DNA of 64,000 bases from a virus: IMG/VR virus record IMGVR_UViG_3300045988_127310; one strand, given 5' to 3'. Under the pieces are notes generated by a model that worked only from the letters and a program-made list of their open reading frames with translations, searched no databases and had not been told where the DNA came from. Position numbers and translations under genes: made by a program. Shown here one piece after another: positions 1 through 64,000 of the stretch (position 1 is the stretch's first letter; each line of letters opens with the position of its first letter).

Positions 1-760
1 CGGAGATAAGTTCTCTGATATTTCCGAAGTTACTTTATGGCTACTTAGAAGGGCTGCCGGCACAACTTCTATCCCGGAAGGAGAAGAGGTTTATGTAGAG
101 GGAGATGAGGTTAATAGTATTATGACCGATATGGAATCAAGGTACGGGATAGACACCATCAACCACTCACATACGACTAAGGCTATAAGGGATCTTGACG
201 GCGTGTCAGGTTATAAAGTAGAATACGGCTTAACCTTTTTGACATACGATCCTTTTATTAGAATATCCAATCCAAGGAAAGAATCTAAGGCCGCAAAAGA
301 CGAGCCTCGTATATCCGAAGAACCGCTTACTCACATATCAAGGGTGACAACCCCTTATTTCCTGTATGGTGGTGACGAAGCATATACATCTGTTCCGGCT
401 AAGGTAGAACCTATACCGGAGAAGATAATGGGTCGTAATGGTATTAAATTTGGTATGAGTGTAGTCGAGCTAACCAAATTAGGGTACAAAAAAGCTGGTG
501 GAAACTGGATATATAAATTCTATATGAACTCAGGTGTGTATGATTTGTATAATATCAGTACCGGTGAAGCGTTTAGGGCAAAACCGGATCTTGGAGTTAA
601 GATAAGTTCCAGTGCATTCATCCGTTCTTTATCTCAATCTGGTAGAAAAATACAAAATATGATGAGTAACATGAGCCAGGAAGAGATAGATAGGAATAAG
701 AATCTTGTAGAAGGTTCTGATAATTCGGATTCGATAAATGAGTTAAACAAGGAGTGTTGA
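1..760 (+). CDS. hypothetical protein, 5'-partial (frame stays open to the window edge; first ATG at 122)
   Basis: Frame 2 has no stop from position 2 to the stop at 758-760, and its third codon positions are A/T-rich like the rest of the genome. The other frames carry early stops. No recognisable motif. Confidence 0.5.
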   Translation, partial: GDKFSDISEVTLWLLRRAAGTTSIPEGEEVYVEGDEVNSIMTDMESRYGIDTINHSHTTKAIRDLDGVSGYKVEYGLTFLTYDPFIRISNPRKESKAAKDEPRISEEPLTHISRVTTPYFLYGGDEAYTSVPAKVEPIPEKIMGRNGIKFGMSVVELTKLGYKKAGGNWIYKFYMNSGVYDLYNISTGEAFRAKPDLGVKISSSAFIRSLSQSGRKIQNMMSNMSQEEIDRNKNLVEGSDNSDSINELNKEC

Positions 761-10019: not shown

Positions 10020-13000
10020 ATGGTATCAACGTGTATTATTAAAAGAGATAATAAAAAGAAAGTTGTTTCTGTCTCTACCAGATCAGGGGACAGGTCTATG
10101 TTGTTTGATAAAATAGCATCTGTTCCTCTTATGGAGAACAGGGAGCGGGCTACTACTGTTTTTAAAACCGTATTTTCCAACAAGTTCTTAAAGGCTTTTG
10201 GCGACTGGAGAAAGAGAGTGCCTATCAACAAACAGGCTTATAATAAGGTAAAATCCAACATCGATCTTATCCCAGAAGCCTATAGAGAAAGGGTGCTGGA
10301 TAAGGCTTCTAAGATGAGTAATCCTGTTCTTGTATCAAAATCAGATGCAACTTATGGGATTCAAGAATCAGGCTTCGGATTCTATAGCCAAGATCTGGGT
10401 GATAATATTATGTTGGTGGATGCTATGATCCCATCAAGTATTTCCGTACCGGAAGAACCAGGAATAGACGCCGGGCAGTATTTACAAGATGCTATATTTT
10501 CGGACTTCACTCCCGTATCTGTGGTACAGGATAAGGGTGTTAATTATATGGTTATAAAAGACGGTCTTAAGATATTTAGCCCAGAAGAGCTACCAGAAAC
10601 AGATTCTAATCCTGTGGGTGTAACGTATCAGACTGGAGAGCCTCGTTTGTTTTTCATGAACGATCGTAGTCAATTATTTGAAGATTACGGAGAAGCTCTT
10701 CGCTCTGGCGGGAATGATATCAGAATAGGGTTCTTATCAGGCACCGTTCAAGAATCTACCGTGGATGGCGTGGCAGACATTACTTACAAAGCTGGAAAGT
10801 ATGTTCTTAATAATCCCAAATCTTTTATACCGGTCATGACCGCTTCTGCTTCTACTTCTTTATCAACAAAAGGTGGTATAATTAACTACCTTATAAAGAA
10901 AGGTCTTTTGTCCGGATCTAAGATATTCGATCCTGAAACAAGAAGCTATTATCTTACAGGAGAAGGTCATACAGGACAAATTAGACTTTTCAATTCAGCC
11001 TTATCATACACCGAGCTCCGTAATCATTTTGGTTCCGATGTTTCCATGAACGACCAAGGTATGATAACCATAAGCTCGTTGGATAACAGTAAGGTAACTA
11101 TGAGACTCGCCACCGGAGGAACGGAAAGGATTAGTAGGGAACAGATAAAGAACGATCTTAAGTCAGGAAGATACAATGAATTGGACGCCAAGTACGATCA
11201 TTTTGATGCGCTTGTAGTTTCATTCATATTAGAAGATAACGATCTTTATGCTGATACTAAAGCTAAGATCGTATCAGATTATAGCAGGCAGGAACGTGAC
11301 CAACGAAATTCTATTGTCGAGATACTGAAAACGCTTGGCGTTAGTGTCATAGGTATGACCGACTATATAGAGAAGTACCAAACCAAATACGGGCACGAAC
11401 CTTCTGCTAAGGCATTGGCGGATATTGCTAATAACGTAATAGCAGTTGGTGAAGATGCTACTTTATCTGATTTAGTAGAAGAAACAGCCCACTTTCTTGT
11501 AGAGGCATACAGAGATCAGAATGCTGTTGAGGCTGTTCTGCAAGATGTAGAAGGTACGGAAGAGTGGAACCAGTATGCAGGTCAGTATTATAATACATAC
11601 GGTAAAGCGTATGAAGGAGCTGAGCTTGATAATGCTGTTAGGAGAGAAATTCTTGGAAAGATCCTCGCCAGGGAGATGCAGGCCGGCACAGCACAGGCGC
11701 CGGTAGAGCCCACCTCCTTCCTGGGGCGCGTCCGGCAGCTTTTCTCTGGAATCGTAAGCTGGCTTAAATCAGCTTTATCAACCCAAAGACAAGATTTGAA
11801 TAACGTTATTAAAAACATTCGTGATCTTGCCATTACTGACATAGATAAAGGATTTGACACCTCTCTGTTAAAGGATAATGACTTTACATTATACTCCCTT
11901 TCTTCTATGAACAAGAACAAGTTTCTTGAGTCTAAGATCAGATCACTAAGAAAAACATTAAGAGACTTACGTCAGATAAGCTCTGATAGGGCTGTAACTA
12001 CGTCTATGACCCTTGCGCAGCTTAAGACCATAGAAGATAAGATAAATAAGGTAGAGACCGAAATAGACAAGAATGAGATGGCGGCTGCCATGAACAGCAT
12101 GATCTCCACAGCCGAAGCTCAGGTCAGATACTTAAGCAATGTGGTGAACACCATCCTTCATGGTGATACCAAAGACGGCAAGCTTCACTTCAACACCAAT
12201 GATCGAAAGAACGTAGATATTATCAACAATCAGGTTCTTCCGATCATGAACGATCTTCGAGGATATATCCGTAACAGAAGTACCGAATTTGATGAACGTG
12301 AAAAGCAGGATTATACAAATAGGATCAACACCGTCATTGCCGACATCAATGGTATTCAGTCTGATATTAAATCAGTACAAGACCTTGATGAAAGTACGTT
12401 GCTTGATAAGTTAATGAACGAACTTCATGTGCCGGCAGATAAGGTAAAGAGAGTAAAAGAATTTTTCGACAAGGTTCAACACGATGTTTCTTGGATAAGT
12501 AGGTGGTTTGGTATATTAGAGCATTCTTCCAGTCCGTTCAATAACGCTCTTGGAGCTATGATTGCCAAAGACAATTACAATGCGATGGTGAATGCCCAGC
12601 CCGCCATATCCGATTTCCTGGCATATGCGAAAAAGCATGGTTTTAACAAATCTGAATTTGAAAAACTGCTTCAGAAAGTAGACGGCAAAACTTCTAATTA
12701 CCTTCGTAGTGCTCTTGATATGGCTAAATACGATCGTAATAAGAAGCTGGCGCAGATGCGAGCGTTTGCGACTGCCATGAACATAGAGATATCAGAAGAA
12801 GAAATTGGTGATGTGGTTGACAATAACCGTAATTACGTATTTAAAAGAGAAGTAGTTGACAAGGATGGAAATACGGTTACTGAAAACGCTAAATTCAAAC
12901 CATCGTCTGATAGGGTTAATACCGATATTTTTACCATCGAGCAGGAAAAGATCTATACGGAACAGATGGAAAAGTGGGATGCTGAAAATTCGGAACTGGA

Positions 13001-16000
13001 ATTTAGTGAAAGTTATGCCACAAGAATGGAATCCATATACAAAAAGGCTGAAGAAGAATTAGGGCATCCAGTTTCTCAAACAACCAAAGAATACCTTAAT
13101 GCTCTATCCAGGCAAAAACGGATACTGAGGCAGCCTTTTATTGATAGCGGTGGTAATTTTGATGAAGTTGCCTATTTTAAAAGCAGCAATTACGAAGAAG
13201 AAGGACTGCTTCGTAAACAACGTAAAGAAGCAGCTTCAGAATACATATATGTAGGAACCAGGAGAGTGGAAAAAACCGGCGACCAACTTAAGATGGCCAA
13301 AGAAATACAAGCTATAAATGAAGTTTGGAGAAAGGAATCAAATAATGTTACTAATGCCGTATCAGAATCGTTTTTGCAAAAATTGAGAGCGATTCAGAGC
13401 GAATCAGGAGGGGAAGCTGCATTGAGAACGCTTATGTTGGGTGGTCACCTGTCATTCAACGATCGGTTTTGGAATGATATAGAATCGGAACAGTCAGCGC
13501 GCACCGAATCAAATAACAAGGCTTCGTATCTCAAAATGGCGCATGATATCATTAGTTCTACGACAAGCGATAGAGATGCGACTGACGTGGATTCTATTGT
13601 GAAAGATATAGAAAAAAATAAGGCTATTATCAAGGAAATAATCGGAAACAATCGCGATGTGGCTGATATCGGAGAAATTAACGAAGCAACATTTACCTCA
13701 TCCGAAAGAGATGCTTTTAGGGCCGCATCTGAAGCTATTGAAGCCGATTACGCTATTTTGATAGATTATGCTAAGATGGTGGGTCTTGAAGATATTGATA
13801 AGTACCTTACTAAAAGCAATAAGGCTGAAAACGAAGTAAATCAGTCTTATTTAAATGCTCTTGCTGACTCCAAGGAAGTGGAATGGAAGTTCGTACAACG
13901 TCATACTACGGCGAAGAAAGCAAAAAGGATTCAGGCTTTAAGGGATAAGCTGTTTAAGGCTGCTGATAACCGATATCTGTTTACCGTATCTGAAACCAAC
14001 TACCTGTCAGAAAAGCTTGGTATAAGCAAAGAATTAGACGGTAGAGATTTTAGGAATGCTGTTAATGCTAAGATGGCCAGCTTGTTTTTAAATAATACAA
14101 GAGAAGAGGGTATAGAAGCTGACATAAAAGCGGGCATAGAAGAGGCCAATGCTATTGTTAATGAATTTGCCAGGAGCCAGGTCTTTTCGTACTATAAACG
14201 CATGGCGCCTACTGGATATGCGGCTATGATCGACAAAATCGGTCGAGGTGAGATAGATGTGGCGCAGATGGTTAAGGACGTACAAAACGGTACATCCACC
14301 CAAGATTATGGCATGGATATATCGTACCTTTCTTTCGATCCTGCAAGGGCATGGGTGGCTGAATCTGAAGCCGAAAATAGCGGCCGTAATCCTGATTATG
14401 TAAAAGATCATGGGTATGGTCATCGAATGCCTAAGAAAAGCCTGTATCGTGATGAATCGTATTTCAATGACTTTGGCATCAAGTATGATGTTGACGGTAA
14501 TGAGGTTGCTACTAAAAATGTAGAGCAGTGGAATATGATTCAAAAACTCAAGGAAATAAAAAGACAATCCCTTGATCTATACAAAGAGCAGAGCCCGAAC
14601 CTGTATGCTATTCCACAGATATCAAAACAAGACATAGAACGTATAGAAGGATTGGGTATTAACTTCAAAAATACGGTTCGTAATTTTGTATCAGATCTGT
14701 GCCTGGACAGAGTAGACGATTCTCTATATGGTAAGACCAGGCAAGGAGAAGTGTATGACCCGGAAGACAGACTTAGGTCTATACCTAAATACTACATATA
14801 TGAGTTGGAGAACCAAGATGATGTATCTCACGATTTTGGCTACTCTTATTCGATGCTTATGATGCAGTCATCGTTATACAACGAAAAGCAGAAGTCTATA
14901 GAGCTCGCTCAAGGACTGGAACAGATGTTACTGAACAAGCAATTTGAAGGCGGTAAGAAGGCTGAAGCAACCCAAGCATATCAGATGTTCAGAGACTTCT
15001 TCAACGATCATTATTATGGCATTAGGATGAACACCAAAAGACTTACGGTGAACATCGGAGGATATACGGTAGACCTTACAAGAATTATGATGGCTGTTGA
15101 AAGATTTATGTCGGTCATGAACTTGGCACTGTCTCCGTTTGTGGCAGCTACCGGCGCCTTAACAGGTCATATCAACCTCATCATGGAATCTGCCGTAGGA
15201 CAGTATATAAGCAAAGACTCCCTTAAATACGCATCGGCTGAATTTTCACGCCTTGCTCCATCTTGTATAGCAGAAACCGGAGACATAGATAGGAAAAGTA
15301 AATTATATGTCATAGGTGAGAGAATGGGGATATTCAATATCCGAAATCGTATGTATGGTGCCGGATACAATAGAGCGGCCAGGACCTTAATGCGTTCGCC
15401 TATGTATGCTTTTATGGAAATCCTGAACTACCCTCTTGATCCGCAGGTTATGATTGCTACTATGGACAATGTTCGTTATTACAAAGGCCGGTTCTACACG
15501 CTCCAAGATTTCAAGATGGAAAAAGAACGCAATAAAGAACAGAGTACCATAAAAAGAGAATGGAACGCATTAAAAGATCGTACTTTATGGAGTATGGTAG
15601 ACGTCGTGGATGGGAAGGTGGTTGTAAAGCCCGGATCAGGTGTTACTGTTGAGGAAGTTGAAACCCAGATGGCTATAACCAGGAATCAAGTCCGTAGCTT
15701 GTCGCAGATATGTAACGGATCTTTGAATGAAGAAAACCGAACTGCTGCATCGCGCAACTGGATAGCCAGGTTCATGACCGCCCACCGAGGATGGTTGGTG
15801 CTGGCGGCTCAACGTCTGTGGAAAAGACGTGGCTTCAATTTCCAGACAATGCAAGAAGAGGAAGGGTTGTCAATTACGTTAAAGAATATGATAGCCAAAA
15901 CATTTAGCCTGGCTTCCGAGTCTGGTATGAAAAACATCATAGATGCCTGGAATGAAAATAAAGACAATATGAATGAGGTAGAAAAAACCAATCTCAAACG

Positions 16001-16466
16001 TCTCAGTGTCTATGCCGGCACGTTCCTTATCATGCAGGCCGTATCTATGCTTCTTGCCGGATGGCGTGATGATGATGAAAACGAAGAAAGTTGGCTTACT
16101 CAATTCGGATCCTATGTCGGATTCAGAACCATAAACGAAATAGCTTCACAGATGCCGTTTATTATGGAGCTTAACGTGGTAGATATCATTAACGATCCGT
16201 TTGTTATGGGGCGGAAACTGAAGGATCTTACCGATCTTAGGAATTATTCACTTGATAAAGTAACATCCGGCACATACAAAGGAGAGTCTAAGTTATTTAG
16301 GCAACTCGCCAAACAGACGTTTATCAAACAATGGTATAATATCAAGACGCCGGAAGACGTAGCGTGCGCTTATAATTGGTGGCAGCAGACGAACAACAAG
16401 TCAATGATGTTCTTCATCGGCGCCACTCCTGATTCGGAAGGTGATGAGGATACAAGCTACAAATAG
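10020..16466 (+). CDS. giant protein (2148 aa) with long coiled-coil stretches and a C-terminal hydrophobic helix; tape-measure-like or ejected-cargo-like; function unassigned
   Basis: Single uninterrupted ORF bracketed by terminators. It has coiled-coil-like heptad segments and a C-terminal hydrophobic helix (VYAGTFLIMQAVSMLLAGW). No polymerase, terminase or portal motif was recognised. Confidence 0.75.
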   Translation: MVSTCIIKRDNKKKVVSVSTRSGDRSMLFDKIASVPLMENRERATTVFKTVFSNKFLKAFGDWRKRVPINKQAYNKVKSNIDLIPEAYRERVLDKASKMSNPVLVSKSDATYGIQESGFGFYSQDLGDNIMLVDAMIPSSISVPEEPGIDAGQYLQDAIFSDFTPVSVVQDKGVNYMVIKDGLKIFSPEELPETDSNPVGVTYQTGEPRLFFMNDRSQLFEDYGEALRSGGNDIRIGFLSGTVQESTVDGVADITYKAGKYVLNNPKSFIPVMTASASTSLSTKGGIINYLIKKGLLSGSKIFDPETRSYYLTGEGHTGQIRLFNSALSYTELRNHFGSDVSMNDQGMITISSLDNSKVTMRLATGGTERISREQIKNDLKSGRYNELDAKYDHFDALVVSFILEDNDLYADTKAKIVSDYSRQERDQRNSIVEILKTLGVSVIGMTDYIEKYQTKYGHEPSAKALADIANNVIAVGEDATLSDLVEETAHFLVEAYRDQNAVEAVLQDVEGTEEWNQYAGQYYNTYGKAYEGAELDNAVRREILGKILAREMQAGTAQAPVEPTSFLGRVRQLFSGIVSWLKSALSTQRQDLNNVIKNIRDLAITDIDKGFDTSLLKDNDFTLYSLSSMNKNKFLESKIRSLRKTLRDLRQISSDRAVTTSMTLAQLKTIEDKINKVETEIDKNEMAAAMNSMISTAEAQVRYLSNVVNTILHGDTKDGKLHFNTNDRKNVDIINNQVLPIMNDLRGYIRNRSTEFDEREKQDYTNRINTVIADINGIQSDIKSVQDLDESTLLDKLMNELHVPADKVKRVKEFFDKVQHDVSWISRWFGILEHSSSPFNNALGAMIAKDNYNAMVNAQPAISDFLAYAKKHGFNKSEFEKLLQKVDGKTSNYLRSALDMAKYDRNKKLAQMRAFATAMNIEISEEEIGDVVDNNRNYVFKREVVDKDGNTVTENAKFKPSSDRVNTDIFTIEQEKIYTEQMEKWDAENSELEFSESYATRMESIYKKAEEELGHPVSQTTKEYLNALSRQKRILRQPFIDSGGNFDEVAYFKSSNYEEEGLLRKQRKEAASEYIYVGTRRVEKTGDQLKMAKEIQAINEVWRKESNNVTNAVSESFLQKLRAIQSESGGEAALRTLMLGGHLSFNDRFWNDIESEQSARTESNNKASYLKMAHDIISSTTSDRDATDVDSIVKDIEKNKAIIKEIIGNNRDVADIGEINEATFTSSERDAFRAASEAIEADYAILIDYAKMVGLEDIDKYLTKSNKAENEVNQSYLNALADSKEVEWKFVQRHTTAKKAKRIQALRDKLFKAADNRYLFTVSETNYLSEKLGISKELDGRDFRNAVNAKMASLFLNNTREEGIEADIKAGIEEANAIVNEFARSQVFSYYKRMAPTGYAAMIDKIGRGEIDVAQMVKDVQNGTSTQDYGMDISYLSFDPARAWVAESEAENSGRNPDYVKDHGYGHRMPKKSLYRDESYFNDFGIKYDVDGNEVATKNVEQWNMIQKLKEIKRQSLDLYKEQSPNLYAIPQISKQDIERIEGLGINFKNTVRNFVSDLCLDRVDDSLYGKTRQGEVYDPEDRLRSIPKYYIYELENQDDVSHDFGYSYSMLMMQSSLYNEKQKSIELAQGLEQMLLNKQFEGGKKAEATQAYQMFRDFFNDHYYGIRMNTKRLTVNIGGYTVDLTRIMMAVERFMSVMNLALSPFVAATGALTGHINLIMESAVGQYISKDSLKYASAEFSRLAPSCIAETGDIDRKSKLYVIGERMGIFNIRNRMYGAGYNRAARTLMRSPMYAFMEILNYPLDPQVMIATMDNVRYYKGRFYTLQDFKMEKERNKEQSTIKREWNALKDRTLWSMVDVVDGKVVVKPGSGVTVEEVETQMAITRNQVRSLSQICNGSLNEENRTAASRNWIARFMTAHRGWLVLAAQRLWKRRGFNFQTMQEEEGLSITLKNMIAKTFSLASESGMKNIIDAWNENKDNMNEVEKTNLKRLSVYAGTFLIMQAVSMLLAGWRDDDENEESWLTQFGSYVGFRTINEIASQMPFIMELNVVDIINDPFVMGRKLKDLTDLRNYSLDKVTSGTYKGESKLFRQLAKQTFIKQWYNIKTPEDVACAYNWWQQTNNKSMMFFIGATPDSEGDEDTSYK

Positions 16467-48556: not shown

Positions 48557-49024
48557 TTAATACTGTGAATCATATTTTCTTTCTCTCCCGCTGTCTTCCC
48601 CTATAGGATTATCCCATCCGTATTTTACAGCCGTAGCTTTAAATAGAGGTAGCCCGTAAAATCCATAATCATCCTCATCCCAGTCTTCAAGACCTTCTTC
48701 CAGGATGTAGTTCCACATCATTACACATTCAAACATTAAACTGGCTGATATTCCTCTCTGATTTAATGCCTTTTCAAAACCGAATCTTACATCTTCCTCA
48801 AGCTGTTTCAAAACATTCTCCCTGGTAAATTCAACTACAGTACTGTTCCACCTTTCTTCGTTATTGTATTCTTCGTTCGGCTTCATACCGAAATCCTTTA
48901 TCATGTTATATGGGATAAATTTAGCCAGTCTGTTAAAATCTCTACCGTCTAAACATCTTGATGTTAATTCTTTAAGTTGTTCTAATGTTTTCATAAGCAA
49001 TTTTGTTTTATAGGTTAATCCCAT
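48557..49024 (-). CDS. hypothetical acidic helical protein (155 aa) translationally coupled to the nucleotidyltransferase
   Basis: Overlaps the upstream nucleotidyltransferase gene by 10 nt. Contains no histidine at all, so it is not a HEPN domain. Confidence 0.5.
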   Translation of the reverse strand: MGLTYKTKLLMKTLEQLKELTSRCLDGRDFNRLAKFIPYNMIKDFGMKPNEEYNNEERWNSTVVEFTRENVLKQLEEDVRFGFEKALNQRGISASLMFECVMMWNYILEEGLEDWDEDDYGFYGLPLFKATAVKYGWDNPIGEDSGRERKYDSQY

Positions 49025-49677
49025 CCTCCAGTAGTGTACAAAGATATATCTTCCTCCTCTACGTTTACACCTTTAATAGCCTGTAGAAGTTTTTTCTTTG
49101 TCTCCCGGCACATATTGTAACCATATCCTTTATACCGATATGAGCGCTCCCATGTACTTACTGGAAAAGGGATATTTTCGTCAATAACCAGCCTCTTCAT
49201 ATGAAGATGTTCGAAGAATTTCTCATGATAGAGTAGTTTGTACTCGTATGCTACTATACTTGCAGATGAGAATGGAAAATAATCATCTTCTTTTTCTTCG
49301 TATTTGGGCTCCTTATAGTAAGCCATTTTTGTCACAGTAAAATCGAAGCTCCTAAGAATCTCTTTCGGCTTTCCAAACTCTGACTCTATGAACTCTATCC
49401 ATACCTTTTCTCCCTCTTTCTGGAACGCACATACCTTCTCATTTCTGTACTTAAATTTCCATCCTTCTTTCTGATGTTTTTCATCATTGAACAAATCAAC
49501 AGCTTCCTGAAAATCGCTTTCACTTTCAAAGAAAATATCAATATCTTTCACTTTTTCTCCGGAAAGGATATTCTTAAAACATCCACCAGCTATGAACCCT
49601 TTGTGACCTTCCATATACTTGTCAAGCCATCTTATTTGCCAGAAATTATCTGGAGTATCTATTACAAAATTGTTCAT
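49015..49677 (-). CDS. nucleotidyltransferase with a PolyA-polymerase/CCA-adding-enzyme head-domain motif (Pol-beta superfamily)
   Basis: FIAGGCFKNILSGEKVKDIDIFF matches the GGxVRDxLLGxxxKDxDh head-domain signature of class-II tRNA nucleotidyltransferases and poly(A) polymerases. It is only 220 aa, lacking the usual body and tail domains. Confidence 0.6.
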   Translation of the reverse strand: MNNFVIDTPDNFWQIRWLDKYMEGHKGFIAGGCFKNILSGEKVKDIDIFFESESDFQEAVDLFNDEKHQKEGWKFKYRNEKVCAFQKEGEKVWIEFIESEFGKPKEILRSFDFTVTKMAYYKEPKYEEKEDDYFPFSSASIVAYEYKLLYHEKFFEHLHMKRLVIDENIPFPVSTWERSYRYKGYGYNMCRETKKKLLQAIKGVNVEEEDISLYTTGGWD

Positions 49678-61539: not shown

Positions 61540-61751
61540 TTATTATATCTGCCATATTCGTTTCTTCCATCATTCCGTATTTCAAAAATCATCTTCTTAT
61601 GATCTTTGCCTGGTAACTTATCCTTAACAGCCGATATTACGCCCGCTATAGACGTGAATCCCGAATCTGTTATTGAACACAGTAACACACCTCTGTCTGC
61701 GCCGGTGCTTATCGCTGACGCCTTTATAATATTATTTTTATATATTCTCAT
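61521..61751 (-). CDS. hypothetical small protein
   Basis: Colinear ORF. Confidence 0.4.
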   Translation of the reverse strand: MRIYKNNIIKASAISTGADRGVLLCSITDSGFTSIAGVISAVKDKLPGKDHKKMIFEIRNDGRNEYGRYNNCGGKI

Positions 61752-61929
61752 AATCTTTCGTTTTATTATCTACAAACTTATCTATATCGTCTCTTATTCT
61801 TTTTAGTACTCCGGCTATAATTTCCGGCATCCCTCCTTCGGTACGGTTCGGAGTTTCTATCACCCCATCAATCCTACCAATTTGACGCCATAAGAAATTG
61901 GCGTCTTTCGCATTAAATTCCCCCATCAT
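61738..61929 (-). CDS. hypothetical small protein
   Basis: Colinear ORF. Confidence 0.35.
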   Translation of the reverse strand: MMGEFNAKDANFLWRQIGRIDGVIETPNRTEGGMPEIIAGVLKRIRDDIDKFVDNKTKDYENI

Positions 61930-62161
61930 GTCTTATTTTACAGTAAACAACTTGCTTTTTTAAGCACCAGTCTTGCGATTCTGAGAGTGAACACCGTTCG
62001 GAGTTGTTAAAAAATATACAATCTTTGCAGAACATAAGAGGATCTTCGTCGTCACCAACTACTTTGACATCATACTCTATGCCATACAATTTTAATCTAA
62101 ATACATCCCCTGCTTCTTTAGAAGACAAATCCATGTTCGGACCGAATGTTATTACTTCCAT
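61913..62161 (-). CDS. hypothetical protein (82 aa)
   Basis: Its ATG lies 22 nt downstream of the conserved 25-nt element. Confidence 0.45.
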   Translation of the reverse strand: MEVITFGPNMDLSSKEAGDVFRLKLYGIEYDVKVVGDDEDPLMFCKDCIFFNNSERCSLSESQDWCLKKQVVYCKIRHDGGI

Positions 62162-62180
62162 ATAATTATGTTTTATTGTT

Positions 62181-62205
62181 TGTGAGATGCCCAGAATCGA
62201 ACCAG
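62181..62205 (-). promoter_or_regulatory. conserved 25-nt promoter-proximal element, copy 1 (tRNA T-arm-like: CTGGTTCGATTCTGGGCATCTCACA on the minus strand)
   Basis: 22 of 25 nt identical to 63429-63453. Both copies lie 22-24 nt upstream of a leftward ATG and follow a terminator hairpin. Confidence 0.45.
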
Positions 62206-62248
62206 GACCGGCACATACGCACCGGCACGCCGCGTCATCCCTCTATGA

Positions 62249-62288
62249 TACAGAAATAGGCATGTCTATCCTCACGAACCGACATGCC
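62249..62288 (-). terminator. rho-independent terminator (GGCATGTC/GACATGCC stem plus T-run on the minus strand)
   Basis: 8-bp perfect stem and 14-nt loop, followed by TATTTCTGTAT. Downstream of gene 62335..62649. Confidence 0.55.
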
Positions 62289-62334
62289 AAAACCCAAAAC
62301 TTAATTTGATGAATAAAATAGATTAACAAAAATA

Positions 62335-62649
62335 CTATTCTAATTCTTTTATAATATCTTTCACAATATTCAGCCTCACCTCCTTCGTTTTTGGACTAAG
62401 ACAACCAAACCACCCATAAAACGTTCTTGTTTCCTCTGGTTCTGTGGCCATACTTATCTTCTCCTCCAATTCCGGGAAATATATTCTCACCATTTCGTCT
62501 GAACAAAACTCATATATATTTTTATGTGTTTTGAGATACATAAACACTACATTTCTTAACGCAACACATATGTATTCCCCATCCTCTAACCTATCAATCA
62601 TCTCATATACCTTTTTCCATATGAATAATCGCTCTTCTTTTGTAAACAT
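62335..62649 (-). CDS. hypothetical protein (104 aa)
   Basis: Colinear ORF. Confidence 0.5.
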   Translation of the reverse strand: MFTKEERLFIWKKVYEMIDRLEDGEYICVALRNVVFMYLKTHKNIYEFCSDEMVRIYFPELEEKISMATEPEETRTFYGWFGCLSPKTKEVRLNIVKDIIKELE

Positions 62650-62663
62650 ATCCTTCTTTATTT

Positions 62664-63005
62664 TTATGGTATTATTTGACTGTATGCAGACTTTTCCATG
62701 TACACAACACTATGTTCCTGTCCAAGTATTTTCTTTGCTGCTTCTTTCTTTATCGCGCAATATCTCCCTGTACGATACGGATTCTTTTGATCTGATCCAT
62801 CCTCGACTTCGATAATAAAACAACCTCCGTCATCTATTATCTTTTTGCAATTGTCACATATTTCTCCCGTGCATATATGATGCGGCGCCTGCCCTTTGAT
62901 GTTATTCCCTAATAAAGCAATCCCCATCTCTTCGCCACATATCATGCAGACTTCTATAGACGGATTCAATCCGTGTTCTGGATGTAATGTAATACCATCT
63001 TTCAT
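62664..63005 (-). CDS. Cys/His-containing hypothetical protein (113 aa)
   Basis: CMICGEE...HHICTGEICDNC cysteine pattern. Confidence 0.5.
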   Translation of the reverse strand: MKDGITLHPEHGLNPSIEVCMICGEEMGIALLGNNIKGQAPHHICTGEICDNCKKIIDDGGCFIIEVEDGSDQKNPYRTGRYCAIKKEAAKKILGQEHSVVYMEKSAYSQIIP

Positions 63006-63406
63006 TTTCTTTCCTCCTTCATTAATTCTATTATAAACTTTTTATCTTGTTCCCACAATGGCAGCCCTTCTTTTACTGTGTATGCCACTGTTTCCCTCTC
63101 TCCTATTAATCGCACGGCAATCTCTCTTGCTTTCAAGTCATCCTCCTCATGCGATTTATTTATTAAATCATAGGCACATGATTCCACCTTTTGCCTTTCG
63201 ATTATTATCGAACCCATTAACTCGCTTATATACGATCCTAAAAACGATAAGACATTAATAGCTTTCCCAATATCATTTGAAATAGCACTTGCTAAATACA
63301 TCTTATCCATATACTCCGGCAAAGCCTCGTATGCCGTTTCTATGTTTTTATACTGATTTTCGTTTACCTCCCTTTTAATCAGTTCTTCAAATTCTTCTTT
63401 TAACAT
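63002..63406 (-). CDS. hypothetical protein (134 aa)
   Basis: Its ATG lies 24 nt downstream of the conserved 25-nt element, copy 2. Confidence 0.5.
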   Translation of the reverse strand: MLKEEFEELIKREVNENQYKNIETAYEALPEYMDKMYLASAISNDIGKAINVLSFLGSYISELMGSIIIERQKVESCAYDLINKSHEEDDLKAREIAVRLIGERETVAYTVKEGLPLWEQDKKFIIELMKEERK

Positions 63407-63428
63407 GTTCTTCCCTATTTTAATGTTG

Positions 63429-63453
63429 TGTGAGATCGCCGGAATCGAACCAG
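63429..63453 (-). promoter_or_regulatory. conserved 25-nt promoter-proximal element, copy 2 (CTGGTTCGATTCCGGCGATCTCACA on the minus strand)
   Basis: See copy 1. Confidence 0.45.
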
Positions 63454-63469
63454 CCTACCGCACCATGAA

Positions 63470-63511
63470 TCCCATAAAGCAAATGCTCCGATCTTCGCAG
63501 ACGGGAGCATT
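63470..63511 (-). terminator. rho-independent terminator (AATGCTCC/GGAGCATT stem plus T-run on the minus strand)
   Basis: 8-bp perfect stem followed by TTTGCTTTAT on the minus strand. Confidence 0.5.
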
Positions 63512-63630
63512 CTGTCTAAAGCATAAGAAAATTAATGAAGAAATTTTTCTCACTTACGCCATAGCATCTAAAATAGCTATCAGCACTATTTCTATGACAA
63601 ACATAATAGAAAATATCTTAAATGCCTTTT

Positions 63631-63915
63631 TCATATTATTTCCTCCTTCTTCTTTATGTTTATAGTTCTTCTATACAGGATCTCTCCGGTCGTAATATCC
63701 TGTGCGCTTACACTAATACGAACACAGTCCTTTAACCAACTCGGTCTGTGTTTAAGCAATTCTTTAGCACTCGTTCTTAATATCATCTCTTTGGCATCTG
63801 ATACCGGCATAGACCTGTTGCTTATTAGTCTACTACTTTTCGAACCTGTAGAAGATACCCAATTTATCCAAATATAATGTATTGTTCTTCCATCTTTTTT
63901 CTTTTTACGTTCCAC
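63631..63915 (-). CDS. hypothetical protein (94 aa)
   Basis: Colinear ORF near the window edge. Confidence 0.45.
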   Translation of the reverse strand: MERKKKKDGRTIHYIWINWVSSTGSKSSRLISNRSMPVSDAKEMILRTSAKELLKHRPSWLKDCVRISVSAQDITTGEILYRRTINIKKKEEII

Positions 63916-64000
63916 AATAAACTGTCCTGGCTCTGCTCCGACCTCCGTTCCACCTACAACCGCAGGCCTTAGCCCAAGGCGCCGCCTACTCCCCCTCTAT

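What the first reader, a model, noticed from the sequence alone, without database searches (positions are those of the whole stretch)
62181..63515. Two copies of a conserved 25-nt element with a tRNA T-arm/acceptor-like sequence, each placed as terminator-spacer-element-ATG
Seen in sequence: the minus-strand sequences CTGGTTCGATTCTGGGCATCTCACA (62181-62205) and CTGGTTCGATTCCGGCGATCTCACA (63429-63453) are 22/25 identical. Each lies 22-24 nt upstream of a leftward ATG. Each is preceded by an 8-bp-stem terminator hairpin and then a GC-rich spacer; in copy 1 the spacer holds two GTGCCGGT direct repeats. The GGTTCGATTC core is the canonical tRNA T-loop. Inference: the conserved position points to a promoter or operator class, possibly for a phage-specific sigma or regulator. 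Alternatively they are decayed 3' tRNA fragments or attachment-core remnants.
Basis: seen in the sequence. Interest (0 to 1): 0.6.

Follow-up and report, generated by a model that had tools for sequence, protein, structure and literature searches.

The report
tRNA-like minihelices between phage genes
The two repeats are not promoters or whole tRNA genes but conserved miniature tRNA mimics (acceptor stem plus T-arm) in the transcripts of a large gut phage; placed just upstream of genes, they probably serve as cutting signals for the host's tRNA-processing enzymes.

Summary
Two 22/25-identical 25-mers lie on the minus (coding) strand, each after a stable hairpin and 19 or 22 nt before an ATG.

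Each 25-mer is the 3' half of a compact tRNA-like element: a 6-7 bp acceptor-like stem stacked on a canonical T-arm (5 bp, loop UUCGAUU). The two are joined by a 13-29 nt connector that replaces the D and anticodon arms.

ARAGORN and Rfam call no tRNA. Relatives of phage csAssE-Sib (95.6% identical to the window) carry these two types plus a third, differently sequenced type just outside the window.

Across 28 distinct cores, collected by homology without any pairing filter, 93% of stem cells pair and 7 of 12 pairs show compensatory double changes. T-loop positions 54-58 are fixed. Many G-U pairs make the fold specific to the sense RNA.

All three types sit 20-29 nt upstream of varied ORFs, as the phage's real tRNA-Cys does (17 nt). 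No copy encodes CCA.

Best reading (inferred, not shown): t-element-like punctuation signals cut by RNase P and RNase Z. As repeats, they also sit at gene-cassette indel junctions.

The promoter/operator reading is not supported. This is a new variant of a known kind.

The parts
62259..62288 (-). Upstream hairpin of unit 1: GGCAUGUC-G-GUUC-GUGA-GGAU-A-GACAUGCC (8 bp, 1x1 loop, 4 bp, GNRA loop). It lies 47 nt after the stop codon of ORF 62335-62649.
   Evidence: MFE fold. Relatives keep pairing through U-A/U-G/G-U changes. Same architecture as hairpin 2 with a different outer-stem sequence.
62242..62258 (-). 17-nt spacer UAUUUCUGUAUCAUAGA between hairpin 1 and the tRNA-like element. The predicted RNase P cut lies at its 3' end.
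   Evidence: Sequence. The cut site is inferred.
62182..62241 (-). tRNA-like element, type 1 (60 nt). 5' acceptor strand GGGAUG 62236-62241; connector ACGCGGCGU 62227-62235 with an invariant GG; dispensable internal hairpin 62207-62226; T-arm CCUGG-UUCGAUU-CUGGG 62190-62206; 3' acceptor strand CAUCUC 62184-62189; A72 and C73 (discriminator-like) 62182-62183.
   Evidence: Not called by ARAGORN or Rfam.
62162..62181 (-). A-rich 20-nt leader AAACAAUAAAACAUAAUUAU ending at the ATG (62161-62159) of ORF 61913-62161. The AAUAAAAC part recurs at 61760-61767 and marks a deletion junction in relatives.
63481..63512 (-). Upstream hairpin of unit 2: (G)AAUGCUCC-C-GUCU-GCGA-AGAU-C-GGAGCAUU(U). It lies after the 26-aa ORF 63554-63634.
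   Evidence: MFE fold. Relatives show A-U to G-U to G-C replacement in the outer stem (AAUGCUCC/GGAGCAUU versus AGUGCUCC/GGAGCACU).
63430..63474 (-). tRNA-like element, type 2 (45 nt). 5' acceptor strand UGGGAUU 63468-63474; 13-nt connector CAUGGUGCGGUAG 63455-63467 (CAUGGUG invariant, the rest variable); T-arm GCUGG-UUCGAUU-CCGGC 63438-63454; 3' acceptor strand GAUCUCA 63431-63437; discriminator-like C 63430.
   Evidence: RNAalifold recovers exactly this fold.
63407..63429 (-). A-rich 23-nt leader ACAACAUUAAAAUAGGGAAGAAC ending at the ATG (63406-63404) of ORF 63002-63406 (phrog_15742).

Best explanation
Each repeat is the 3' half of a miniature tRNA mimic encoded on the sense strand of a long co-directional array of small phage genes.

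Shown:
- The RNA can fold into a 6-7 bp acceptor-like stem stacked directly on a canonical T-arm.
- A short connector replaces the D and anticodon arms. It carries an invariant GG that could play the role of the D-loop G18/G19.
- Stem pairing is maintained by compensatory substitutions in three paralogous sequence types across all 270 copies collected.
- The elements lie 20-29 nt upstream of start codons.
- None encodes CCA.

Inferred:
- The acceptor/T-arm stack and elbow is the minimal substrate of RNase P, RNase Z and the CCA-adding enzyme. The elements would therefore act like plant-mitochondrial t-elements or mitochondrial tRNA punctuation.
- RNase P would cut at the 5' end. That leaves the upstream mRNA ending shortly after its protective GNRA hairpin.
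- RNase Z would cut after the discriminator-like C. That releases the downstream mRNA with a short, A-rich, unstructured leader suited to a host that does not rely on Shine-Dalgarno pairing.
- The excised 45-60 nt minihelix would be discarded or CCA-tailed.

A secondary consequence (shown): as dispersed repeats, the elements and their AAUAAAAC-type leaders sit at indel and recombination junctions of gene cassettes among related phages.
For: Not a tRNA:
- ARAGORN finds no tRNA in the window or over the copies in the 40 relative loci scanned (L001-L040).
- Rfam gives nothing at gathering scores. At E<=10 the only hit is the 17-nt T-arm.

A real, selected RNA fold:
- 270 copies were collected by blastn homology without any pairing filter.
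- On the 28 distinct acceptor+T-arm cores, 92.9% of cells pair. Of the 24 unpaired cells, 22 are at pair 1:72.
- 7 of 12 pairs carry changes on both sides. 0 of 500 shuffles reach the observed pairing or covariation score. Slid controls give 34-59% pairing.
- RNAalifold independently returns the acceptor+T-arm fold for type 2 and type 3.
- Abundant G-U pairs would be A-C mismatches on the other strand.

tRNA-specific constraints:
- Loop positions 54-58 (UUCRA) are near-invariant while 59-60 vary.
- G53-C61 is invariant.

Family:
- A structure-descriptor scan of 1.3 Mb of related phage DNA returns the three mini types, genuine tRNAs, and three T-arm units beside rsr, one of which is not an annotated tRNA.
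- A similar scan (connector limited to 5-40 nt) finds 2 in the window. Block shuffles of the related 151-kb genome give 0.32 per genome.

Position:
- All types precede ATGs by 20-29 nt, even where the downstream gene differs.
- The phage's genuine tRNA-Cys sits 17 nt before the next ATG in the same orientation.
- None of the phage's six tRNAs nor the elements encodes CCA, so 3' maturation and CCA addition are needed anyway.

Precedent: t-elements found with the same GGTTCRANYCC motif direct RNase P/Z formation of mRNA ends (PMC1920247).
Against: - There are no expression or end-mapping data. Cleavage by RNase P or RNase Z is purely inferred.
- Pair 1:72 is usually mismatched, so the acceptor stem is effectively 6 bp. 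Chen et al. found that only a Y RNA with a 7-bp acceptor stem was cut by RNase P (PMC4201824).
- For type 1, energy-based folding prefers an alternative pairing to the weak, G-U-rich T-stem.
- An extended-hairpin alternative (GUG-C-GGU...AUC-U-CAC) is possible for types 1 and 2.
- Single-sequence folds are not more stable than shuffles (z -0.1 to -1.9).
- The covariation rests on three paralog lineages in closely related genomes, so there are few independent events.
- Only three copies exist per genome, clustered within about 3.3 kb. General mRNA punctuation would be expected more widely across the operons.
- If the upstream hairpins terminate efficiently, read-through transcripts spanning the elements would be rare.
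Confidence: 0.5

Rival explanations
1. The elements are genes for small, stable tRNA-mimic RNAs with a trans function. After excision they would be CCA-tailed, by the host enzyme or by the phage nucleotidyltransferase annotated in the relative. They would then act as decoys or sponges for tRNA-binding factors, such as host defence nucleases or transferases that target acceptor ends, modification enzymes, EF-Tu or AlaRS. Their position before ORFs would be incidental.
For: - The fold is the minimal substrate for many tRNA-binding enzymes.
- G3:U70 is present in types 1 and 2.
- The related genome is annotated with a CCA-adding/poly(A) polymerase-like gene, PNKP, an NrnA-like phosphodiesterase and Ro60/Rsr, which together form an RNA-repair/quality-control toolkit.
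- The minihelix is under strong purifying selection.
Against: - G3:U70 is absent in type 3 and is replaced by A3:U70 in some type 1 copies.
- There is no anticodon arm, so anticodon nucleases cannot be decoyed.
- The annotated nucleotidyltransferase ORF (window 49015-49677) has no Pfam hit at E<=1e-3.
- A destabilised 1:72 pair next to G2 G3 resembles substrates that are CCACCA-tagged for decay (my recollection of Wilusz et al. 2011, not checked here).
- No precedent was found in the literature searches.
Confidence: 0.15
2. The elements are uncleaved cis-acting 5'-UTR structures. They would stabilise the 5' end of the downstream mRNA, or keep the A-rich translation-initiation region unstructured and so promote ribosome loading. 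The tRNA likeness would be ancestral baggage or would recruit a tRNA-binding factor in cis.
For: - The distance to the start codon is constant (20-29 nt) across different downstream genes.
- The leaders are A-rich.
- The phage's nearest cultured relatives infect Cellulophaga, and a relative's record annotates Bacteroidetes-associated carbohydrate-binding proteins. This suggests a Bacteroidota host, where initiation relies little on Shine-Dalgarno pairing (established knowledge).
Against: - This reading does not explain the precise conservation of T-loop residues 54-58 or the acceptor/T-arm geometry.
- A generic hairpin would do the job.
- A genuine tRNA, which is certainly processed, occupies the same position before another ORF.
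Confidence: 0.12
3. The elements are degenerate tRNA pseudogenes with no RNA function. They would matter only as dispersed repeats that promote recombination and cassette shuffling, like PeSLs in T4-type phages, or they would be att-type remnants of integration into tRNA genes.
For: - Gene content differs immediately downstream of the elements among relatives.
- One contig (L033) joins a type 2 element to the gene that normally follows type 1.
- A deletion junction uses AAUAAAAC microhomology.
- The PeSL precedent is documented (PMC2839356, PMC4122927).
Against: - Neutral decay would break stems. Instead pairing is kept through compensatory changes, and T-loop residues are fixed in 270 copies.
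- Both acceptor strands are present, unlike att 3' fragments.
- No integrase is annotated in the complete relative.
Confidence: 0.08
4. One reading: the elements are DNA-level promoters or operators for a phage-specific sigma factor, RNA polymerase or regulator, placed after a terminator. This would be a PeSL-like terminator-promoter cassette.
For: - The arrangement is hairpin, then conserved block, then ATG.
- One weak sigma-70-like match (9/12) overlaps copy 1.
Against: - What is conserved is pairing, not sequence.
- Type 3 shares only the T-loop with types 1 and 2.
- G-U pairs make the fold impossible on the template strand, so an N4-type DNA hairpin promoter is also unlikely.
- Promoter-like matches are not enriched (14 found versus 10.8 +/- 3.0 in shuffles).
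- I saw no shared Bacteroides-type TTTG/TAnnTTTG motif.
- Only about 20 nt separate the element from the ATG.
Confidence: 0.05
5. The elements are Y-RNA-like partners of the phage-encoded Ro60/Rsr.
For: - The related genome encodes Rsr.
- Bacterial and phage Y RNAs contain tRNA-like domains with a T-arm (PMC4201824).
Against: - The topology is wrong. YrlA runs T-arm, then closed acceptor-like hairpin, then D-arm, inside a terminal Ro-binding stem. These elements have an open acceptor stem and no terminal stem.
- They lie about 75 kb from rsr.
- A much better YrlA-like candidate with exactly that topology lies next to rsr (L123 22590-22715).
Confidence: 0.03

Closest known systems
Plant mitochondrial t-elements (tRNA-like processing signals; Forner et al. 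2007, PMC1920247)
   Same: - Non-decoding tRNA-like structures recognisable by the GGTTCRANYCC T-arm motif plus an acceptor-like stem.
- Embedded in mRNA precursors, next to mRNA 5' or 3' ends.
- Occur beside genuine tRNAs that play the same role.
- CCA is not encoded.
   Different: - Here the setting is a dsDNA phage of a probable Bacteroidota host, not an organelle.
- The elements are much smaller (45-61 nt, versus a non-canonical cloverleaf of about 74 nt).
- They sit within 20-29 nt of the start codon and are paired with an upstream GNRA hairpin.
- Cleavage is unproven here, whereas several t-element ends were mapped experimentally.
Animal mitochondrial tRNA punctuation, and MALAT1/mascRNA-type tRNA-like 3'-end processing
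   Same: - A tRNA or tRNA-like fold within a long transcript is used by RNase P and RNase Z to separate functional RNAs.
- The upstream RNA is left with a protective structure at its 3' end. That is a triple helix in MALAT1 and would be a GNRA hairpin here (the MALAT1 part is from my own knowledge).
   Different: - Those systems use full cloverleaf-like folds in eukaryotic or organellar settings.
- Here the D and anticodon arms are missing and the host is bacterial.
- Processing is not demonstrated.
YrlA-type bacterial and phage Y RNAs (Chen et al. 2014, PMC4201824)
   Same: - A tRNA mimic with a canonical T-arm.
- Found in phages.
- Can be an RNase P and CCA-adding substrate when the acceptor stem is long enough.
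- The related phage encodes Rsr.
   Different: - YrlA is circularly permuted relative to tRNA: a closed acceptor hairpin between the T and D arms, with the termini forming the Ro-binding stem.
- YrlA is encoded next to rsr.
- The window elements have an open acceptor stem, no D-arm and no terminal stem, and are far from rsr.
tmRNA tRNA-like domain
   Same: - An acceptor stem plus T-arm joined by a short D-loop analogue without a D stem.
- G3:U70 is present in types 1 and 2.
- The only Rfam hit is the T-arm of beta-tmRNA (E = 2.8).
   Different: - No tag ORF, pseudoknots or long P2 helix.
- ARAGORN finds no tmRNA.
- G3:U70 is not conserved in type 3.
- The discriminator is C rather than A.
PeSL promoter-terminator cassettes of T4-type phages (PMC2839356, PMC4122927)
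   Same: - Composite intergenic motifs, a stem-loop followed by a conserved block.
- They flank small ORFs in plastic genome regions and coincide with indel and shuffling junctions between close relatives.
   Different: - In PeSLs the conserved block is an early promoter at the DNA level.
- Here it is a co-varying RNA fold that mimics tRNA, and no promoter consensus was found.
Armless or truncated mitochondrial tRNAs, and prokaryotic tRNA gene fragments (PMC2797822, PMC9897764; found, only titles and abstract openings seen)
   Same: - Shortened tRNA-derived sequences that standard tRNA finders miss or mislabel.
   Different: - Armless mitochondrial tRNAs keep an anticodon arm and decode. These elements have no 7-nt anticodon loop, and type 2 has no middle arm at all.
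- From my own knowledge, fragments of the att type are one-sided 3' pieces without a co-varying 5' strand.

Membership tests
Canonical tRNA gene | Cloverleaf with D-arm and an anticodon arm (5 bp, 7-nt loop); detected by tRNA finders or Rfam RF00005 | tested here: not met
   ARAGORN finds 0 in the window and none over the copies in the 40 relative loci scanned. Rfam shows no tRNA hit even at E<=10. The connectors are 13-32 nt, and their hairpin loops are 4 or 5 nt.
Canonical tRNA gene | T-arm: 5-bp stem closed by G53-C61, with loop T54-Psi55-C56-R57-A58-N-N | tested here: met
   G53-C61 is invariant in the 28 distinct cores. The loop is UUCRA in 27 of the 28 distinct cores (one has UCCGA), with variable positions 59-60.
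t-element / tRNA-like mRNA processing signal | GGTTCRANYCC-type T-arm plus an adjoining acceptor-like stem in a non-decoding fold | tested here: met
   Type 2 has GGTTCGATTCC. Type 1 has GGTTCGATTCT, where the last pair is G-U. A 6-7 bp acceptor stem abuts the T-stem.
t-element / tRNA-like mRNA processing signal | Located in the sense orientation inside a transcription unit, between coding regions | tested here: met
   Both copies lie on the minus strand between minus-strand ORFs in a strand-uniform gene array. Transcription itself is inferred.
t-element / tRNA-like mRNA processing signal | Element termini coincide with mapped mRNA 5'/3' ends; cleaved by RNase P and/or RNase Z | not testable with these tools
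   No transcript-end or enzymatic data are available. This is the key missing test.
t-element / tRNA-like mRNA processing signal | No encoded CCA after the discriminator (CCA is an RNase Z anti-determinant) | tested here: met
   The tails after the discriminator-like C begin AAAC (type 1), ACAA (type 2) and, in most type 3 copies, UAAA or UAUA (one variant UGAA). The phage's own tRNAs also lack CCA.
YrlA / Y RNA | Order T-arm, closed acceptor-like hairpin, D-arm, enclosed by a terminal Ro-binding stem | tested here: not met
   The elements have an open acceptor stem, no D-arm and no terminal stem. The rsr-adjacent RNA in the relative does show that order.
YrlA / Y RNA | Encoded adjacent to rsr | tested here: not met
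   In csAssE-Sib, rsr lies at 73.1-74.7 kb. The elements lie at about 148.6 kb, 149.8 kb and 0.5 kb.
tmRNA | tRNA-like domain with G3:U70, plus a tag reading frame and pseudoknots | tested here: not met
   ARAGORN finds no tmRNA. G3:U70 occurs only in types 1 and 2. Only 13-29 nt lie between the acceptor and the T-arm in the two window copies.
PeSL-like terminator-promoter cassette | Stem-loop followed by a conserved promoter (-35/-10 or host-specific boxes) | tested here: not met
   The hairpins are present. Promoter-like matches are not enriched, and none is shared by the copies. The conservation is structural.
PeSL-like terminator-promoter cassette | Sits at indel/shuffling junctions between close relatives | tested here: met
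   Different genes follow the same element type. L033 is a type 2/type 1 recombinant. AAUAAAAC microhomology marks a deletion junction.
attP core / tRNA 3' fragment | Identity to the 3' end of a host tRNA gene; integrase nearby; only the 3' part present | tested here: not met
   A co-varying 5' strand is present. No integrase appears in the annotated relative. No matching host tRNA was found among 120 bacterial hits; the scan was truncated, so this last point is inconclusive.
AlaRS-type minihelix | G3:U70 identity pair, A73 discriminator | tested here: not met
   G3:U70 occurs in 16 of 28 cores. It is G:C in type 3 and A:U in two type 1 variants. The discriminator is C in all.

The most novel reading that the evidence does not exclude
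The phage encodes a small family of excised 'mini-tRNAs', consisting of acceptor stem, T-arm and elbow only. They would be released from its mRNAs by RNase P and RNase Z, and CCA-tailed by the phage's own nucleotidyltransferase. They would then act in trans, for example by saturating or misdirecting a host factor or defence enzyme that reads tRNA acceptor ends or elbows. That would make them part of the same RNA-repair/quality-control toolkit as the phage PNKP, Rsr and Y-RNA-like gene. Their role in mRNA punctuation would then be secondary.
Probability: 0.12. Interest if true: 0.85.

Novelty: new variant of a known kind. Interest (0 to 1): 0.6.

Why it matters
If these minihelices are processing signals, a large gut phage punctuates its polycistronic messages with stripped-down tRNA mimics. 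That strategy is documented for mitochondria, plant organelles and a few eukaryotic long non-coding RNAs. In the searches made here I found no description of it as a dedicated, conserved element class in tailed phages.

It would give a concrete, testable handle on how mRNA ends are made in phages of Bacteroidota-type hosts, where promoters, terminators and translation signals are poorly understood.

It would also define a minimal natural substrate, 45 nt long, for RNase P, RNase Z and the CCA-adding enzyme.

It shows that tRNA finders and Rfam miss a class of conserved tRNA-derived elements in viral metagenomes. It also shows that such repeats mark the boundaries where gene cassettes are gained and lost.

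Tried and rejected
- **Complete tRNA or tmRNA.** ARAGORN and Rfam were negative.
- **Origin from a phage or host tRNA.** The six tRNAs of the related genome are not similar to the elements. It returned mostly chance matches in coding DNA plus 12 ordinary tRNAs, none like the element, so it is uninformative.
- **Alanine-minihelix / tmRNA-like identity via G3:U70.** Dropped, because type 3 and some type 1 variants lack it and the discriminator is C.
- **Y-RNA partner of the phage Rsr.** Dropped on topology and distance, and because a better candidate sits next to rsr.
- **Alternative extended-hairpin fold for types 1 and 2 (GUG-C-GGU...AUC-U-CAC).** This fold is possible, but it cannot form in type 3 and G-to-A variants break it. 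It is not the family-level fold.
- **Promoter.** The sigma-70 scan shows no enrichment, and no Bacteroides-type boxes are shared.
- **Function from neighbouring genes.** The adjacent small ORFs have no informative Pfam or PHROG match.
- **The annotated 'CCA-adding / poly(A) polymerase' ORF.** It has no Pfam hit at E<=1e-3, so I do not lean on it.
- **The 2148-aa virion protein.** It gave no PDB sequence match.
- **Distant cultured relative phi4:1.** It has orphan T-arm hairpins before two ORFs but no clear 5' acceptor strand, so it neither extends nor refutes the family.
- **Literature.** Searches for a phage precedent found none.
Full report
**1. The observation**

Read on the minus strand, the two 25-mers are present exactly where the finding places them: 62181-62205 and 63429-63453. 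They are 22/25 identical. A degenerate pattern written to match both copies, allowed up to 3 further mismatches, finds only these two sites in the 64-kb window; 100 dinucleotide-preserving shuffles gave none.

Both copies lie in intergenic gaps of a strand-uniform array of small minus-strand ORFs. The ATG follows the 25-mer after 19 nt in copy 1 and 22 nt in copy 2.

Each copy is preceded by a hairpin of one shape: an 8-9 bp outer stem, a 1x1 internal loop, 4 bp, and a GNRA tetraloop (GUGA or GCGA). The outer stems differ completely in sequence but both pair. Relatives show A-U to G-U to G-C replacements in them. The U-tracts are weak, and the terminator scan does not call these hairpins.

**2.

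Each 25-mer has a complementary 5' strand a short way upstream.

- Copy 2 reads UGGGAUU - CAUGGUGCGGUAG - GCUGG UUCGAUU CCGGC - GAUCUCA - C (63474 down to 63430).
- Copy 1 reads (A)GGGAUG - ACGCGGCGU - [GCCGGUGC GUAU GUGCCGGU] - CCUGG UUCGAUU CUGGG - CAUCUC - AC (62241 down to 62182).

Each is therefore an acceptor-like stem abutting a canonical T-arm, joined by a short connector that replaces the D and anticodon arms. Between the two copies, T-stem pair 1 is C-G versus G-C, and acceptor pair 7 is G-C versus U-G.

ARAGORN finds no tRNA or tmRNA in the window. Rfam finds nothing at gathering scores. At E<=10 it reports only the 17-nt T-arm against beta-tmRNA.

**3. Relatives**

The region is 95.6% identical to phage csAssE-Sib (OR575929.1; 151 kb; human gut). 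That phage's major capsid protein is closest, among cultured phages, to Cellulophaga phages phi4:1 and phi17:2, at 34% identity. The record annotates Bacteroidetes-associated carbohydrate-binding proteins. A Bacteroidota host is therefore likely, though this is an inference.

An exact-pattern scan of IMG/VR hit its 120-locus limit. None of the hits in the 40 loci scanned (L001-L040) overlaps an ARAGORN tRNA.

I then ran a structure descriptor over 1.3 Mb of these loci. It required a 5-bp T-stem (G-U allowed), a TTCRANY loop, and a 6-nt 3' strand fully paired with a 6-mer 5-60 nt upstream. It returned the following:

- Type 1: 58 nt, or 44 nt where one GTGCCGGT repeat is lost.
- Type 2: 42 nt.
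- A third type: 61 nt.
- Genuine tRNAs: 68-70 nt.
- Three T-arm units beside rsr, one of which is not an annotated tRNA (see section 8).

Type 3 reads (U)GGUUGU-A-GCAU-AA-AUUC-GUACA-GGAU-AGGA-AUGC-GUG-UCCGG UUCGAUU CCGGA-GCAACC-UC. It lies about 1.9 kb upstream of copy 2 in csAssE-Sib, just beyond the end of the window, and 23 nt before an ATG. Its acceptor sequence is unrelated to that of types 1 and 2, yet it pairs.

With the connector limited to 5-40 nt, the descriptor finds 2 sites in the window. Block shuffles of the 151-kb genome give 0.32 per genome.

**4. Covariation**

To avoid selecting for pairing, I collected copies by blastn homology alone. This gave 114 type 1, 108 type 2 and 48 type 3 copies. 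I reduced them to 28 distinct acceptor+T-arm cores, with connectors removed.

For the 12-pair stack:

- 92.9% of cells form standard pairs. Of the 24 unpaired cells, 22 are at pair 1:72.
- 7 of 12 pairs show changes on both sides.
- 0 of 500 shuffles reach the observed pairing or covariation score.
- Sliding the partners by 1-3 columns drops pairing to 34-59%.

Within types there are clean double changes:

- Type 2 T-stem pair 4 goes from G-C to A-U (L092).
- Type 3 T-stem pair 3 goes from C-G to U-A (L035/L104).
- The type 2 copy in L045 has the 3' strand AAUUCC and keeps all six pairs.
- The inner arm of type 3 cycles through AUUC/GGAU, AUCU/GGAU, AUUC/GAAU and AUCU/AGAU.

RNAalifold independently predicts the acceptor+T-arm fold for types 2 and 3. 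For type 1 it predicts the acceptor stem and the internal hairpin, but replaces the weak, G-U-rich T-stem with an alternative pairing. G-to-A variants break that alternative while turning U-G into U-A in the T-stem.

T-loop positions 54-58 are essentially fixed (UUCRA), while 59-60 vary. G53-C61 is invariant. Each connector keeps an invariant GG, a possible G18/G19 analogue (inference).

The many G-U pairs would be A-C mismatches on the other strand, so the fold belongs to the sense RNA.

Two caveats apply. The sequences are close relatives in three paralog lineages, so independent events are few. Single-sequence folds are also not significantly more stable than shuffles.

**5. Context that bears on function**

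All three types precede start codons by 20-29 nt with A-rich leaders. This holds even where recombination has placed a different gene downstream:

- Type 1 is followed by MEVITFG... or MRIYKNN...
- Type 2 is followed by MLKEEF..., MKDG..., or, in L033, the gene that normally follows type 1.

One deletion junction uses the octamer AAUAAAAC. It is shared by the type 1 tail and by window 61760-61767.

In csAssE-Sib a genuine tRNA-Cys sits in the same orientation 17 nt before the next ATG. None of the phage's six tRNAs, and none of the elements, encodes CCA.

The related genome is also annotated with Ro60/Rsr, PNKP, an NrnA-like phosphodiesterase and a nucleotidyltransferase. The nucleotidyltransferase ORF in the window (49015-49677) has no Pfam hit. 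The small ORFs next to the elements have no informative family match.

**6. Interpretation**

The shown facts are these: a selected, sense-strand, tRNA-like acceptor/T-arm minihelix, present in three paralogous forms, sits immediately upstream of ORFs, in the place where a real tRNA also occurs.

The acceptor/T-arm stack with its elbow is the established minimal recognition unit of RNase P, RNase Z and the CCA-adding enzyme (established knowledge). Plant mitochondria use tRNA-like 't-elements', found with the same GGTTCRANYCC motif, as RNase P/Z signals that create mRNA ends (PMC1920247).

I therefore propose that these are phage t-element-like punctuation signals:

- RNase P would cut at the 5' side. 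The upstream mRNA would then end a few nucleotides after its GNRA hairpin, which would protect it from 3' exonucleases.
- RNase Z would cut after the discriminator-like C. The downstream mRNA would then start with a short, unstructured, A-rich leader.

This is inference; I put it at about 0.5.

Points against it:

- The acceptor stem is effectively 6 bp, with a mismatched 1:72 pair. Only a 7-bp Y-RNA acceptor stem was cut by RNase P in PMC4201824.
- There are only three copies per genome, clustered within about 3.3 kb.
- How often transcription reads through the hairpins is unknown.

**7. Rivals**

- **Trans-acting excised mini-tRNA mimic (0.15).** This fits the RNA-repair gene set. There is no direct support, and G3:U70 is not family-wide.
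- **Uncleaved 5'-UTR stability or translation element (0.12).** This does not explain the tRNA-specific residues.
- **Functionless tRNA pseudogenes acting only as recombination repeats or att remnants (0.08).** Purifying and compensatory evolution, the presence of both strands, and the absence of an annotated integrase all contradict this.
- **Y-RNA partner of Rsr (0.03).** The topology and location are wrong, and a better candidate sits next to rsr.

**8. Seen in passing**

- **Y-RNA candidate.** In csAssE-Sib, outside the window, the RNA just upstream of tRNA-Tyr, tRNA-Lys and rsr (L123 22590-22715) folds as follows: a terminal stem (GGAAGGUG/CACCUUCC within a longer helix), a V hairpin, a T-arm (ACAGG UUCGAGU CCUGU) and a closed acceptor-like hairpin (AUUUUUC-AUGCAA-GAAAGAU) (z = -2.2). 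By eye it also has a D-like arm (AGAUC AGUUGGUA GAUU). This is the YrlA order described in PMC4201824. Rfam did not report it at gathering threshold.
- **Cellulophaga phage phi4:1.** It carries orphan T-arm hairpins on the coding strand: one 9 nt before the ATG of gp169, and one 26 nt before the ATG of gp193, directly after tRNA-Ile. I could not find a convincing 5' acceptor strand for either.

**9. Verdict**

- The feature is a conserved family of tRNA-like minihelices. It is most likely a bacterial-virus version of t-elements or tRNA punctuation, and it doubles as a recombination junction.
- It is a new variant of a known kind. Interest is about 0.6.
- Transcript-end mapping and in vitro RNase P/Z cleavage are the decisive missing experiments.

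Noticed in passing
L123 22590-22715 (+) = OR575929.1 about 72590-72715, outside the window: A YrlA-like Y-RNA candidate lies directly upstream of tRNA-Tyr, tRNA-Lys and the Ro60/rsr gene of csAssE-Sib. The MFE fold (z = -2.2) gives a terminal stem (GGAAGGUG/CACCUUCC), a V hairpin, a canonical T-arm and a closed acceptor-like hairpin; by eye there is also a D-like arm with AGUUGGUA. Rfam did not report it at gathering threshold.
   Followed up: partly
L122 about 505-570 (-) = OR575929.1 about 505-570, about 1.9 kb upstream of copy 2 and beyond the window end: A third type of the same tRNA-like element. Its acceptor sequence is unrelated (GGUUGU/GCAACC), it has a co-varying middle arm, and it sits 23 nt before an ATG. 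The annotated upstream CDS (556-843) runs into its 5' acceptor strand.
   Followed up: yes
window 61760-61767 (-) and 62166-62173 (-): The octamer AAUAAAAC occurs in the type 1 tail and again just upstream of the MRIYKNN ORF (ATG at 61751). Relatives that lack the two ORFs in between are joined exactly there. This indicates microhomology-mediated loss or gain of a two-gene cassette.
   Followed up: partly
L033 (IMGVR_UViG_3300045988_114508): A natural recombinant. A complete type 2 element is followed, after ...UUAAAA, by the leader and gene that normally follow type 1. The three ORFs between the two window copies are deleted.
   Followed up: partly
window 63918-64000 (-): A further GC-rich intergenic stretch follows a stop codon. 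It begins AUAGAGGGGGAGUAGGCGGCG, which resembles the start of the type 1 unit (AUAGAGGGAUGGCGCGGCG), but it has no T-loop. Its fold is no better than shuffles (z = 0.1).
   Followed up: partly
L123 22590-22900 (+), outside the window: Three repeated leader motifs, (A)GUGGUGAUGG...GUUACUUCG, each precede a T-arm-containing unit: the Y-RNA candidate, tRNA-Tyr and tRNA-Lys. This suggests a duplicated tRNA/Y-RNA cassette next to rsr.
   Followed up: no
L247 (Cellulophaga phage phi4:1, NC_021788.1) record positions 129943-129965 and 143323-143345; also L246, record 91108-91256: Orphan T-arm hairpins on the coding strand that are not called as tRNAs. One lies 9 nt before the gp169 ATG. One lies directly after tRNA-Ile and 26 nt before the gp193 ATG. 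Two more lie near the tRNA cluster, one of them closing a 122-nt unit with a 7-bp acceptor-like pairing. No clear minihelix could be drawn for the first two.
   Followed up: partly
window 49015-49677 (-): This ORF corresponds by length (663 nt) and approximate position to the csAssE-Sib gene annotated 'polyA polymerase / CCA-adding enzyme'. It has no Pfam match at E<=1e-3, so that annotation is not confirmed here.
   Followed up: partly
L121 2541-2699 (OR575929.1 148558-148716): The GenBank record annotates a 52-aa 'hypothetical protein' across the hairpin and type 1 element. This is probably a spurious ORF call over a structured RNA.
   Followed up: no
window 10020-16466 (+): A 2148-aa ORF matches only a PHROG 'virion structural protein' (phrog_37651, E = 2e-77). 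It has no Pfam or PDB sequence match.
   Followed up: no
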